Shown here in pieces: positions 16,820 to 18,442 of a DNA stretch of 22,941 bases. Positions within the stretch are counted from its first letter, which is position 1; each line of letters starts with the position of its first letter. The stretch lies in contig PKTH01000019.1 of NCBI GenBank assembly GCA_002869265.1, forward strand, positions 1-22,941, read 5' to 3'. Origin of the DNA: Candidatus Parcubacteria bacterium. GTDB lineage: Bacteria > Patescibacteriota > Patescibacteriia > Patescibacteriales > BM507. Under the pieces are notes generated by a model that saw nothing but the letters and a program-made list of their open reading frames with translations, ran no database searches and was not told the origin of the DNA. Both the position numbers and the translations under genes were made by a program.

Positions 16820-16901
16820 TTATAACACAAAACACTCCTAATATTAGGAGTGTTTCTTAATGGGTGGTCAAGCGAGAAAGTTGGCAAACTACATTGTTTA
16901 A
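16820..16901. repeat. Repeat copy A: a 24-nt perfect palindrome plus a conserved mini-ORF (MGGQARKLANYIV) that ends 1 nt before the stop of the 470-aa gene
   Basis: AACACTCCTAATATTAGGAGTGTT at 16831-16854. About 80% identical to copy B over about 75 nt. Confidence 0.6.
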
Positions 16902-16902
16902 T

Positions 16903-18315
16903 TTATAGGCTTTGAATTATTTTTTTTGTTTCGAAATATTCTATAGGTACTAATTCCACATTTTCAAGTGATTCTCTTTCTTCTGAATTTTTTGGCAATT
17001 CTTCAATTCTTTTATCAACCCATTTTTTAGCCTTACTGATGTCAGTATATGGGACTCTAATTTGTTTGATGTTAGAGTTTGCAATATTATTTTTTGTTCT
17101 TCTTTCACAAATGCCTCCAGTTGTAAAAGTATTCAAATCTTCTTTTGGTAAATTATTTCCATCATAAATTAAAACTACTCTAAATTGATCTTCAAGCAAC
17201 TCTTTGTCATTATCTGTTGTATTTTTATCATACCACTCCTTTTTTTGCTTTAGAATTGGAATAGTATTTTTTATGTAGTTTACAAAATTTTCGTCTTTAA
17301 TATCATTTAATATTTCATTTTTATCAAGCAATTCTTGAAGCTCACTGGATATTTTTTTATAATCAAAGTTGTATTTTGTTTTATTATATAAGTTTTTTAT
17401 TCTTTCTAAGTATTTTTTTTCTAATTCTTCCTTGGATAAACCCTGCATCTCTTCAGACTCTGATAGTTTTGTAATTTTTTTTCTTAAATCATCTTCAATA
17501 TATTTTTGCTCTTCCTTTGTTAACTCTGGGGCTTCTCCAAAGATCATTTTAACGGCCTCTTCTCCTTGGGAGGTGTAGTCCTCTATGATATCTTTTCTGT
17601 CTAACAATAAGTGAGATGAGTCTTCATTCATAGCGGCATAAAGATTACTAACAAATTCAGATTGTTTATATCCACCAATAGCGAAGGAAGTTCCACTATG
17701 AGCAGTATTAGTTACCCCCTTTTCGCCACCAAAGGCGTTCTCTCCAGAATTAAGGCCACCACTTTTTAATATTTTACTTAATGCAAAAGAACCAGTTCCA
17801 TGATAAATCGGTATTTCTGCATCAAACTCTTTTTCTCTAGAATAATATTCAAGAGCATGATTTAATATTTCTATTTTTTCTCCAGTTTCATCATTCTGCT
17901 TTATTGCCTCCATTGCTTTTTCAATCTGCTCATCCGCATTTTCTCCAAGCTCTAAGTTGTTATAAAGAGTTAATTTCTCTTTTTCGTTTTTTAGAGAATC
18001 AAATCTTTCGTTATCAGTTTTTGCTGAATCAATTACATCATTAACTAGCCTGCTGTATATTTCTTCTTTTGAAGTATCACTTAAAGGTAAGCCATCAAGC
18101 TCTGCTATTTGTTTTTGGTATTCAACTTCCTGGATAGCTCTTTTTTCTTCTATTTCTTCTTTGGAGATGTTTGAGACATTAAAACTTTTTAGCTTGTTAT
18201 TAATTTCTTCAATCTTTTGACTTCTTTTTTCTGAAATAGTTTTATCATTATTTGTATTACTGTTCATTTCAATGAAGATTTCTTGGTTACTTTTTTGTCC
18301 TTCTGGATTAGTCAT
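16903..18315 (-). CDS. Glu/Lys-rich hypothetical protein (470 aa) with a possible ADP-ribosyltransferase-like core
   Basis: Long ORF with a central IPIYHGTGSFALSKILKSGGL ... GTSFAIGGYKQSEFVSNLY segment resembling the HGT/HGS NAD-binding motif of DT/ExoA/PARP-type ADP-ribosyltransferases. No signal peptide. Confidence 0.55.
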   Translation of the reverse strand: MTNPEGQKSNQEIFIEMNSNTNNDKTISEKRSQKIEEINNKLKSFNVSNISKEEIEEKRAIQEVEYQKQIAELDGLPLSDTSKEEIYSRLVNDVIDSAKTDNERFDSLKNEKEKLTLYNNLELGENADEQIEKAMEAIKQNDETGEKIEILNHALEYYSREKEFDAEIPIYHGTGSFALSKILKSGGLNSGENAFGGEKGVTNTAHSGTSFAIGGYKQSEFVSNLYAAMNEDSSHLLLDRKDIIEDYTSQGEEAVKMIFGEAPELTKEEQKYIEDDLRKKITKLSESEEMQGLSKEELEKKYLERIKNLYNKTKYNFDYKKISSELQELLDKNEILNDIKDENFVNYIKNTIPILKQKKEWYDKNTTDNDKELLEDQFRVVLIYDGNNLPKEDLNTFTTGGICERRTKNNIANSNIKQIRVPYTDISKAKKWVDKRIEELPKNSEERESLENVELVPIEYFETKKIIQSL

Positions 18316-18351
18316 AAATTATAATCGGTTTATATTTATTGATATATCTAT

Positions 18352-18442
18352 TTTAACACAAAAACACCCCTAAGATTAGAGGTGTTCCTTTATGGGCGGC
18401 CAATCGAAAAACTTGGCAAATTATTTTGATGAATATTGCTAA
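18352..18442. repeat. Repeat copy B: hairpin AACACCCCTAAGATTAGAGGTGTT plus mini-ORF MGGQSKNLANYFDEYC
   Basis: Direct-orientation copy of repeat A, 32 nt upstream of the 470-aa gene start. The mini-ORF differs from A's mostly by synonymous or conservative codon changes. Confidence 0.6.

What the first reader, a model, noticed from the sequence alone, without database searches (positions are those of the whole stretch)
16820..18442. The 470-aa gene is bracketed by ~75-nt direct repeats, each with a palindromic hairpin and a conserved mini-ORF (MGGQ..LANY)
Repeat A (16820-16901) and repeat B (18352-18442) are about 80% identical and in the same orientation. A ends 1 nt before the stop of the minus-strand 470-aa gene. 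B starts 32 nt upstream of that gene's start codon.

Each repeat contains an 11-bp-arm hairpin: AACACTCCTAA/TTAGGAGTGTT in A, and AACACCCCTAA/TTAGAGGTGTT in B. The 3' arm of the hairpin contains the Shine-Dalgarno-like AGGAG/GAGGTG of a following mini-ORF:
- A: ATG GGT GGT CAA GCG AGA AAG TTG GCA AAC TAC...
- B: ATG GGC GGC CAA TCG AAA AAC TTG GCA AAT TAT...

Four of the 11 aligned codons differ only synonymously and the other differences are conservative (A/S, R/K, K/N). This hints at selection on a peptide or on a ribosome-binding-site-sequestering leader.

Read on the minus strand, the same hairpins would act as a 5'-UTR structure (B) and a terminator (A) for the 470-aa gene.

Direct repeats flanking a single gene could also mark a mobile or recombining cassette.
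Basis: seen in the sequence. Interest (0 to 1): 0.7.

Follow-up and report, generated by a model that had tools for sequence, protein, structure and literature searches.

The report
Duplicated terminator-promoter module brackets accessory gene
Two diverged 103-base copies of an intergenic hairpin-plus-promoter module flank exactly one accessory gene in a Parcubacteria contig, most likely the scars of a small gene insertion rather than two tiny peptide genes.

Summary
The repeats are real. They are longer than reported: 16801-16902 and 18332-18435, 103 nt, 76-78% identical, far above chance. The unique DNA between them is exactly the 470-aa ORF plus 16 nt.

The module reads best on the minus strand, the strand of the gene. 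The hairpin keeps -15.6/-15.7 kcal/mol there in both copies, but drops to -8.9 in copy B on the plus strand. One stem pair is compensated. A U-rich tract runs into an extended -10 motif (TGTGTTAWAAT), which is enriched in the window and also sits at the TrmB promoter. So B probably supplies the gene's promoter and A its terminator.

The mini-ORF signal is weak: 4 of 7 changes are synonymous (P about 0.03), ORF lengths differ, and the ribosome-binding site is buried.

The parts
16801..16902 (-). Repeat copy A (103-nt module). On the minus strand it lies immediately 3' of the stop codon of the 470-aa gene.
   Evidence: Alignments. The similarity ends at 16902 and the stop codon is at 16903-16905.
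18332..18435 (-). Repeat copy B (103-nt module). On the minus strand it ends 16 nt 5' of the ATG of the 470-aa gene.
16831..16854 (-). Hairpin A: 11-bp arms AACACTCCTAA/TTAGGAGTGTT. On the minus strand it is followed by UUUUGUGUU. Proposed terminator of the 470-aa gene.
   Evidence: Folding gives -15.7 kcal/mol on the minus strand and -14.6 on the plus strand, z about -6.
18363..18386 (-). Hairpin B. It is fully paired on the minus strand (one G.U pair) and has a C.A mismatch on the plus strand. Relative to A, one stem pair changed on both sides (U-A to C-G).
   Evidence: Folding gives -15.6 kcal/mol on the minus strand versus -8.9 on the plus strand. Sequence.
16819..16829 (-). Extended -10 promoter-like motif TGTGTTATAAT directly after hairpin A. 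It is an orphan: no minus-strand gene lies downstream, only about 50 nt before the bidirectional terminator at 16729-16759.
   Evidence: TRTGNTAWAAT has 4 hits in the window versus 0.41 expected. Terminator.
18350..18360 (-). Extended -10 promoter-like motif TGTGTTAAAAT directly after hairpin B. Proposed promoter of the 470-aa gene, with an inferred transcription start near 18343 and a roughly 28-nt leader without a Shine-Dalgarno sequence.
   Evidence: Sequence.
16903..18315 (-). 470-aa accessory gene. It has no Pfam, PHROG or PADLOC match. The core of a confident model has a DarT/Tpt1-like fold, with nearly invariant H172-G-T and E404.
16860..16901 (+). Mini-ORF A (MGGQARKLANYIV). Probably not a gene.
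18392..18442 (+). Mini-ORF B (MGGQSKNLANYFDEYC). It is in the same frame as the radical SAM remnant, separated from it by one TAA codon.
18527..19207 (+). Radical SAM gene remnant, homologous to residues 129-355 of 360-362-aa relatives. The Fe-S cluster motif region is missing. It marks a rearrangement breakpoint next to copy B.

Best explanation
A and B are two diverged copies of one roughly 103-nt intergenic punctuation module that functions on the minus strand, the strand of the 470-aa gene.

Read on that strand, each copy has three parts:
- about 50 nt of leading sequence;
- a stable stem-loop;
- a U-rich tract that runs straight into an extended -10 promoter (TGTG-N-TAWAAT).

Copy A therefore probably ends the 470-aa transcript. 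Copy B probably stops read-through from upstream and restarts transcription of the 470-aa gene.

The unique DNA between the copies is just the ORF plus 16 nt, so the unit is one gene plus one module. The most likely origin is insertion of a one-gene islet by site-specific (att-type) recombination, leaving attL/attR-like direct repeats. Homologues of this gene elsewhere show the same geometry.

What is shown: the repeat and its limits, the strand asymmetry of the hairpin, the enrichment of the promoter motif, the accessory and context-variable nature of the gene family, and its recurrent association with flanking direct repeats.

What is inferred: terminator and promoter activity, and insertion as the origin.

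The plus-strand mini-ORFs are most likely by-products of this module.
For: Repeat limits and significance:
- define the repeat and its significance.
- The unique DNA between the copies is 16903-18331, the ORF plus 16 nt.

Strand of the hairpin:
- The minus-strand hairpin has equal energy in both copies (-15.7 and -15.6 kcal/mol).
- On the plus strand it is -14.6 in A but only -8.9 in B.
- One stem pair changed on both sides (U-A to C-G).
- A second change gives G.U on the minus strand only.

Promoter motif:
- TRTGNTAWAAT occurs 4 times in the window against 0.41 expected.
- All four hits are intergenic: A, B, one just upstream of the TrmB ATG, and one in the TrmB/141-aa divergent region.

Gene family:
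- It is rare and has no Pfam, PHROG or PADLOC match.
- The model has pLDDT 92.9.
- The gene's neighbourhood differs in every locus.

Flanking direct repeats in 5 of 7 family loci with DNA:
- the window;
- L004, a tRNA 3' half plus terminator and a degraded copy;
- L014, 96 nt at 92% identity around three genes;
- L018, a tRNA-Trp 3' end plus terminator, whose second copy ends at the ATG of the family gene;
- L019, 68 nt at 84% identity, with the second copy 14 nt after the stop.

Context:
- The locus next to B is a rearrangement breakpoint, marked by the truncated radical SAM gene.
Against: - No integrase or other recombinase lies in the 23-kb window. The only gene inside the repeats has a transferase-like fold.
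- The longest identical run between A and B is 8 nt, so there is no clear crossover core.
- No tRNA, tmRNA or Rfam RNA is recognisable in or next to A or B. The target of the supposed insertion is therefore unknown.
- No empty site or second genome with this module could be found.
- The tool's own terminator scan did not call either hairpin, because the U-tract is interrupted (UUUUGUGUU).
- A small second stem (GYCAA/UUGGC) pairs better on the plus strand in A (and the sequence), and the codon-position bias also favours the plus strand.
- The same contig has another repeated module family (D1) that brackets genes and is conserved as a functional element in another genome. Bracketing repeats can therefore arise here without mobility.
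- Two family loci (L003, L017) show no flanking repeats.
Confidence: 0.5

Rival explanations
1. A and B are two members of a resident, functional intergenic module family: a regulatory or punctuation element, or a REP/MITE-like dispersed repeat. They happen to lie on both sides of this gene. There was no insertion event, and the gene is simply one unit in a modular arrangement like the D1 array 2 kb away.
For: - The D1 family in the same contig has 4 copies at 65-87% identity. It brackets unrelated small genes, and it is conserved with compensatory pair changes in another genome.
- The A/B identity (76-78%) is in the same range.
- The similarity is even along the whole 103 nt, as expected for a constrained module.
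- There is no recombinase and no identical core.
Against: - Only 2 copies exist in 23 kb, and none in any other locus or collection searched.
- Copy A's promoter half and copy B's terminator half have no obvious client gene.
- The family gene recurs next to direct repeats of unrelated sequence in other genomes, twice clearly tRNA att-type.
Confidence: 0.25
2. This is a plus-strand reading. A and B are two copies of the 5' end of a protein-coding gene: regulatory hairpin, ribosome-binding site and the first 11-12 codons, MGGQ..LANY. One is a remnant and the other a replacement 5' end left by an island that integrated into the 5' end of a gene, as dusA-specific islands do. Alternatively, they are genuine leader or small peptides.
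For: - Five of 7 substitutions are at third codon positions and 4 are synonymous. The permutation P is about 0.03, and the other five frames show 0-2 synonymous changes.
- An ATG with an AGGAG or GAGGTG ribosome-binding site 7-9 nt upstream is present in both copies.
- Mini-ORF B is in frame with the following radical SAM remnant, separated by one TAA.
- There is a precedent for islands that replace a gene's 5' end and leave a remnant: PMC4482086.
Against: - n = 7 substitutions, so significance vanishes after correcting for six frames.
- The antisense frame also gives conservative changes (V/I, L/V, T/A).
- The stop positions differ (13 vs 16 codons).
- The ribosome-binding site is buried in a -14.6 kcal/mol stem in A, and the stem is weaker on the plus strand in B.
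- Relatives' radical SAM proteins start differently and have a different upstream peptide.
- Nothing on the plus strand follows A.
Confidence: 0.15
3. This is an integron-type gene cassette: A and B are attC recombination sites bracketing a promoterless cassette.
For: - The ORF is tightly packed between roughly 100-nt repeats that contain a hairpin.
- The repeat abuts the stop codon and ends 16 nt before the start.
Against: - There are no R''/R' boxes (RYYYAAC/GTTRRRY) in copy B, and only partial matches in A (read from the sequence).
- The hairpin covers only 24 of the 103 nt, not the whole site.
- No IntI or any tyrosine recombinase is in the window.
- The neighbours are housekeeping genes in mixed orientation, not a cassette array.
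Confidence: 0.03

Closest known systems
attL/attR direct repeats of small genomic islets integrated at tRNA 3' ends (integrase-less remnants, cis-mobilisable elements)
   Same: - Imperfect direct repeats of tens to about 100 nt flank accessory DNA.
- Each repeat comprises the end of a transcription unit plus its terminator.
- Homologues of the same gene sit in unambiguous tRNA-3'-end repeat pairs (L004, L018).
   Different: - In the window the repeated sequence is not a recognisable tRNA, tmRNA or gene end.
- There is no integrase.
- There is no identical core longer than 8 nt.
- The islet holds a single gene.
Intrinsic terminator followed by an extended -10 (TRTGnTATAAT) promoter in compact intergenic regions
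   Same: - A stable stem-loop is followed by a U-rich tract on the strand of the gene.
- A TGTG-N-TAWAAT motif follows directly.
- The same motif is present at the TrmB promoter of the contig.
   Different: - The U-tract is interrupted by G residues.
- There is no -35 hexamer, because the hairpin occupies that position.
- Activity is untested.
- One copy of each half has no client gene.
dusA-specific genomic islands (PMC4482086)
   Same: An island replaces one end of a gene with its own copy. This leaves a remnant copy as an imperfect direct repeat.
   Different: - Those islands carry a dedicated tyrosine integrase and share a 21-bp consensus att site.
- Here the supposed target gene (MGGQ..) is not identifiable.
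Integron attC-bounded cassettes
   Same: A single ORF is tightly bounded by hairpin-containing repeats of about 100 nt in direct orientation.
   Different: - There are no R/L box architecture, no IntI and no array.
DarT (DarTG toxin) and Tpt1/KptA ADP-ribosyltransferase-fold enzymes (for the enclosed gene)
   Same: - The family has a nearly invariant H-G-T motif and a nearly invariant Glu.
   Different: - There is no sequence-level match to Pfam or to PDB sequences.
- The protein carries a long N-terminal coiled coil and helical insertions.
- No DarG-like macrodomain partner lies in the window.

Membership tests
Integrated islet with attL/attR repeats | Direct repeats flank DNA that is accessory or variable between genomes. 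| tested here: met
   The repeat is defined. The gene family sits in a different context in each locus.
Integrated islet with attL/attR repeats | The repeat derives from the end of the target gene (tRNA, tmRNA or a protein-coding gene). | tested here: inconclusive
   No tRNA, tmRNA or Rfam RNA was found at A or B. The feature is met for homologue loci L004 and L018.
Integrated islet with attL/attR repeats | A site-specific recombinase gene lies in or next to the islet. | tested here: not met
   No recombinase domain was found in any ORF of the window. The enclosed protein has a DarT/Tpt1-like fold.
Integrated islet with attL/attR repeats | An empty site exists in relatives, or a circular excision product is detectable. 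| not testable with these tools
   No close relative of the contig is in any collection. Reads are not available.
Intrinsic terminator | A stable stem-loop is followed by a U-tract on the transcribed strand, downstream of a gene. | tested here: inconclusive
   The hairpin is -15.6/-15.7 kcal/mol on the minus strand and is followed by UUUUGUGUU. Copy A lies 50 nt after the stop codon. The consensus scan did not call either hairpin.
Extended -10 sigma-70 promoter | A TRTG-N-TATAAT-like motif is oriented towards a gene. | tested here: met
   For B, the motif is at 18350-18360 on the minus strand, 35 nt upstream of the ATG. The motif is enriched, with 4 hits versus 0.41 expected. For A, the motif is present but has no gene downstream.
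Leader peptide or small protein gene | A conserved ORF (start, frame, length and stop) under codon-level selection, with a downstream gene on the same strand. | tested here: inconclusive
   The start codon and ribosome-binding site are conserved, and 4 of 7 changes are synonymous (P about 0.03). However, the lengths differ (13 vs 16 codons). There is no plus-strand gene after A and only a pseudogene after B.
Integron cassette (attC) | R''-L''...L'-R' architecture with RYYYAAC/GTTRRRY boxes, and an IntI gene nearby. | tested here: not met
   The boxes were not found in the sequence. No integrase is present.
REP/MITE-like dispersed repeat | Many copies per genome, with terminal inverted repeats or target-site duplication. 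| not testable with these tools
   Only this 23-kb contig of the genome is available. It has 2 copies, and collection scans gave none.
D1 structured repeat family of the same contig | A match to the covariance model of the two-hairpin element. | tested here: not met
   With model R1, true members score 69-91 bits. A scores 18.5 bits (E = 0.2) and B scores nothing.
DarT/Tpt1-like ADP-ribosyltransferase fold (enclosed gene) | The ADP-ribosyltransferase fold with catalytic His and Glu, and NAD-dependent activity. | tested here: inconclusive
   [not shown]

The most novel reading that the evidence does not exclude
Candidate-phyla-radiation bacteria may exchange minimal one-gene cassettes that carry no integrase. 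In this reading, a DarT/Tpt1-like ADP-ribosyltransferase gene travels with one copy of a roughly 100-nt terminator-promoter (or tRNA 3' end) module. It inserts by duplicating the host's equivalent module, so both the incoming gene and the host unit keep a promoter and a terminator. The recombination would be supplied in trans, or by an unrecognised activity of the cassette protein itself.
Probability: 0.12. Interest if true: 0.7.

Novelty: new member of a known kind. Interest (0 to 1): 0.38.

Why it matters
If the insertion reading holds, this would be a small, clean example of how accessory genes enter the very compact genomes of Parcubacteria. Mobile elements are poorly catalogued in these organisms, and their intergenic signals are hardly known.

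It also yields a testable promoter and terminator consensus for this lineage.

It flags an unannotated protein family with a DarT/Tpt1-like fold: about 70 clusters at 50% identity among 1.8 billion representatives. Such proteins may act as toxin, defence or nucleic-acid-modifying enzymes.

If the repeats are only resident regulatory modules, the finding is ordinary.

Tried and rejected
- Exact degenerate-pattern scans for the mini-ORF core gave no hits in metagenome contigs, genome contigs or viral contigs. Even the source contig is absent from those collections.
- Protein-guided locus searches in genome contigs and viral contigs found nothing. In metagenome contigs they found only spurious sortase matches to the PIYHGT motif.
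- An nhmmer profile of A and B against all fetched loci found no further copies.
- Rfam found nothing near threshold, at gathering cut-offs or with permissive E-values. ARAGORN found no tRNA or tmRNA. A hand check for a T-arm and acceptor end in B also failed.
- A diversity-generating retroelement TR/VR pair was rejected. The substitutions are not adenine-specific, there is no reverse transcriptase, and the repeats are not in a coding region.
- A dif/Xer site was rejected because the arms are 2 nt apart, not 6-8 nt. IS200/IS605 ends were rejected because no TnpA or TnpB gene is present.
- Membership in the neighbouring D1 repeat family was rejected with a covariance model.
- No remnant of a lost tandem paralogue was found upstream of B. 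The flank alignments are at chance level.
- The first structure model, built from a 4-sequence alignment, was unusable (pLDDT 49.5). A 50-sequence alignment fixed this.
- The phage and plasmid collections gave no match.
- Looking for an empty site through exact copies of the cupredoxin protein returned only the same contig.
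Full report
**Source.** The window is an entire 22,941-nt metagenome contig (JGI 3300007102). 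It was also assembled independently as ENA ERZ794998 NODE_905. NCBI labels the 470-aa protein as a hypothetical protein of a Candidatus Parcubacteria bacterium. Both assemblies carry both repeat copies.

**Observation.** The two repeats exist and are in direct orientation.
- Local alignment extends them to 16801-16902 and 18332-18435. That is 103 nt with one 1-nt indel, at 76-78% identity.
- The alignment score is 79, against 18.1 +/- 2.7 for shuffled sequence. Self-BLAST gives E = 5e-13.
- The flanks on either side do not align better than chance.
- Only two copies exist in the window.
- The non-repeated DNA between them is 16903-18331. That is the 470-aa ORF from stop codon to start codon, plus 16 nt of upstream sequence.
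The exception is hairpin B, which has a C.A mismatch on the plus strand.

**Which strand.** The evidence mostly favours the minus strand.
- Folded as RNA, the minus-strand hairpin has the same stability in both copies (-15.7 and -15.6 kcal/mol). The plus-strand hairpin drops from -14.6 in A to -8.9 in B.
- Between the copies, one stem pair changed on both sides (U-A to C-G). A second change gives a G.U pair on the minus strand but a C.A mismatch on the plus strand (sequence).
- On the minus strand, a U-rich tract follows the stem (UUUUGUGUU). It is continuous with TGTGTTATAAT in A and TGTGTTAAAAT in B, the form of an extended -10 promoter.
- The pattern TRTGNTAWAAT occurs four times in the window, against 0.41 expected. 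The other two hits lie in the divergent TrmB/141-aa promoter region, one of them just upstream of the TrmB start codon.
- I therefore read the module as terminator plus promoter on the strand of the 470-aa gene. A would terminate the gene, and B would insulate and promote it. This is inference; no transcript data exist.
- Some evidence points the other way. The tool's terminator scan did not call either hairpin. A small second stem pairs slightly better on the plus strand in A.

**The mini-ORFs.**
- In the first 33 nt there are 7 substitutions. Five are at third codon positions and four are synonymous.
- A permutation that keeps the number and type of substitutions gives P about 0.03 for this frame. 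The other five frames have 0-2 synonymous changes.
- This is suggestive but rests on seven sites. The antisense frame also gives conservative replacements.
- The ORFs end at different places (13 and 16 codons).
- The ribosome-binding site is inside the stem.
- A has no plus-strand gene after it. B is followed, in the same frame after one TAA, only by a radical SAM remnant.
- That remnant matches residues 129-355 of 360-362-aa relatives and lacks the cluster-binding N-terminus.
- In relatives, the radical SAM gene is preceded by a quite different small peptide gene: MYANAGSKAG... in L005 and MNANSGTKAG... in L006.
- I keep a plus-strand reading as a rival at about 0.15. It covers either a remnant and replacement 5' end of a gene, as in dusA islands (PMC4482086), or a real peptide.

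**The enclosed gene.**
- It has no Pfam, PHROG or PADLOC match.
- Only three close homologues exist among 5.8 billion proteins. A profile search finds 70 proteins with E up to 0.001 among 1.8 billion cluster representatives.
- With a 50-sequence alignment, AlphaFold2 gives a confident model (pLDDT 92.9).
- Foldseek and sequence profiles find nothing.
- H172 (in P-I-Y-H-G-T) and E404 are nearly invariant across the family. This fits an H..E type ADP-ribosyltransferase, but it is not proof.
- The protein is not recognisably a recombinase.

**Comparative context.** Every family locus has a different neighbourhood, so the gene is accessory. Of the seven distinct loci with DNA, five show a direct-repeat pair with one copy close to the family gene:

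| Locus | Repeat | Position relative to the family gene |
|---|---|---|
| Window | 103 nt, 76-78% identity | One copy 16 nt before the ATG; the other abuts the stop |
| L004 | About 85 nt: 3' half of a tRNA plus its terminator, and a degraded copy | Brackets the gene alone |
| L014 | 96 nt at 92% identity, containing a GC-rich hairpin | Brackets the gene plus two others |
| L018 | tRNA-Trp 3' end plus terminator, repeated 1 kb downstream | Second copy ends at the gene's ATG |
| L019 | 68-nt promoter-like repeat at 84% identity | Brackets two APH genes and the family gene; second copy 14 nt after the stop |

- L003 and the short L017 contig show no flanking repeats.
- The repeats are unrelated in sequence between genomes. 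Their geometry is shared: the end of a transcription unit, or a promoter, plus a hairpin.
- The two tRNA cases are the classical signature of site-specific integration. This is the main support for reading A and B as insertion scars.

**Limits of that reading.**
- No recombinase gene lies in the window.
- There is no identical core longer than 8 nt.
- There is no recognisable target RNA or gene in A or B.
- No empty site was found.
- The same contig holds another repeat family, D1 (four copies at 20639-22356), that also brackets unrelated genes. It is conserved with compensatory pair changes in a second genome, L005. A covariance model of D1 finds its six members at 69-91 bits and does not find A or B.
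- Bracketing by functional intergenic modules therefore happens in this lineage without any evidence of mobility. I give that rival 0.25.

**Rejected alternatives.**
- Integron attC: no R boxes, no IntI.
- DGR TR/VR pair: the substitutions are not adenine-specific and there is no reverse transcriptase.
- dif/Xer site and IS200/IS605 ends.
- tRNA or tmRNA remnant.
- Membership of the D1 family.
- Assembly artefact.

**Verdict.**
- The peptide interpretation is weak. The minus-strand terminator/5'-element and cassette interpretations are the better ones.
- The thing is best filed as a diverged direct-repeat pair of a terminator-promoter module around a one-gene accessory islet. It is a new member of a known kind.
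- Interest is moderate. It rests mainly on the recurring link between an unannotated DarT/Tpt1-like family and integrase-less repeat-flanked islets in Parcubacteria.

Noticed in passing
window 20639-20724, 20940-21026, 21230-21314, 22273-22356 (+); L005 9777-9862 and 11625-11709: This is the D1 family, an element of about 85 nt with two hairpins. The first hairpin is variable (GGYAAG...CTTRCC). The second is long and AU-rich, and its 3' arm ends in GGAGAAG. In the window copies TTCTTTAAA follows. Copies precede unrelated small genes, and in L005 they bracket the peptide-radical SAM operon. RNAalifold finds 8 of 22 pairs with changes on both sides. A covariance model finds exactly these six copies (69-91 bits) and nothing else. 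There is no Rfam match. It could be a new cis-regulatory or punctuation RNA of Parcubacteria.
   Followed up: partly
window 18527-19207 (+), with 19221-19994 (-): This is a radical SAM pseudogene. It matches only residues 129-355 of 360-362-aa relatives. The natural stop is lost, and the ORF runs on antisense into the 3' end of the TrmB gene. In relatives L005 and L006 the order is TrmB (divergent), then a small peptide gene, then the radical SAM gene, then small genes. The window locus is therefore rearranged.
   Followed up: partly
L005 9891-9944; L006 9818-9916: Small ORFs sit directly upstream of the intact radical SAM genes. L005 encodes MYANAGSKAGTVKPIKK. L006 encodes MNANSGTKAGKKSRIRREWSANSGTKAGQESR, in which the AN-x-G-x-KAG motif is repeated. 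They look like precursor peptides of a radical-SAM-modified product. No such peptide gene was seen in the window.
   Followed up: no
[not shown]
   Followed up: partly
window 19999-20081: The divergent TrmB/141-aa intergenic region holds a 25-nt-arm inverted repeat (20023-20047 and 20057-20081, 88% complementary). It overlaps an extended -10 motif (20030-20040, +). A second such motif (19999-20009, -) ends 4 nt before the TrmB ATG, which suggests a leaderless TrmB mRNA and an operator.
   Followed up: no
L018 47-157 and 1090-1159: tRNA-Trp is followed by a 1-kb islet with two small genes (92 and 152 aa), and then a degraded copy of the tRNA 3' end plus terminator. This is an integrase-less islet at a tRNA gene in another genome of this group. 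L004 also shows extra T-arm-like fragments after its tRNA, which suggests repeated integration.
   Followed up: partly
L015 6103-6242: A tandem array of 7-nt units (AAATTCC/AAATAAC/AAATCCC) lies downstream of a HAD hydrolase gene.
   Followed up: no
window 8300-13600 and 16269-16712: This is a copper-handling cluster. It holds a CsoR-like repressor (PF02583), HMA-domain proteins, a P-type ATPase, a DsbD-cupredoxin fusion and a secreted cupredoxin. The cupredoxin gene ends in a strong bidirectional terminator at 16729-16759, just left of repeat A.
   Followed up: no
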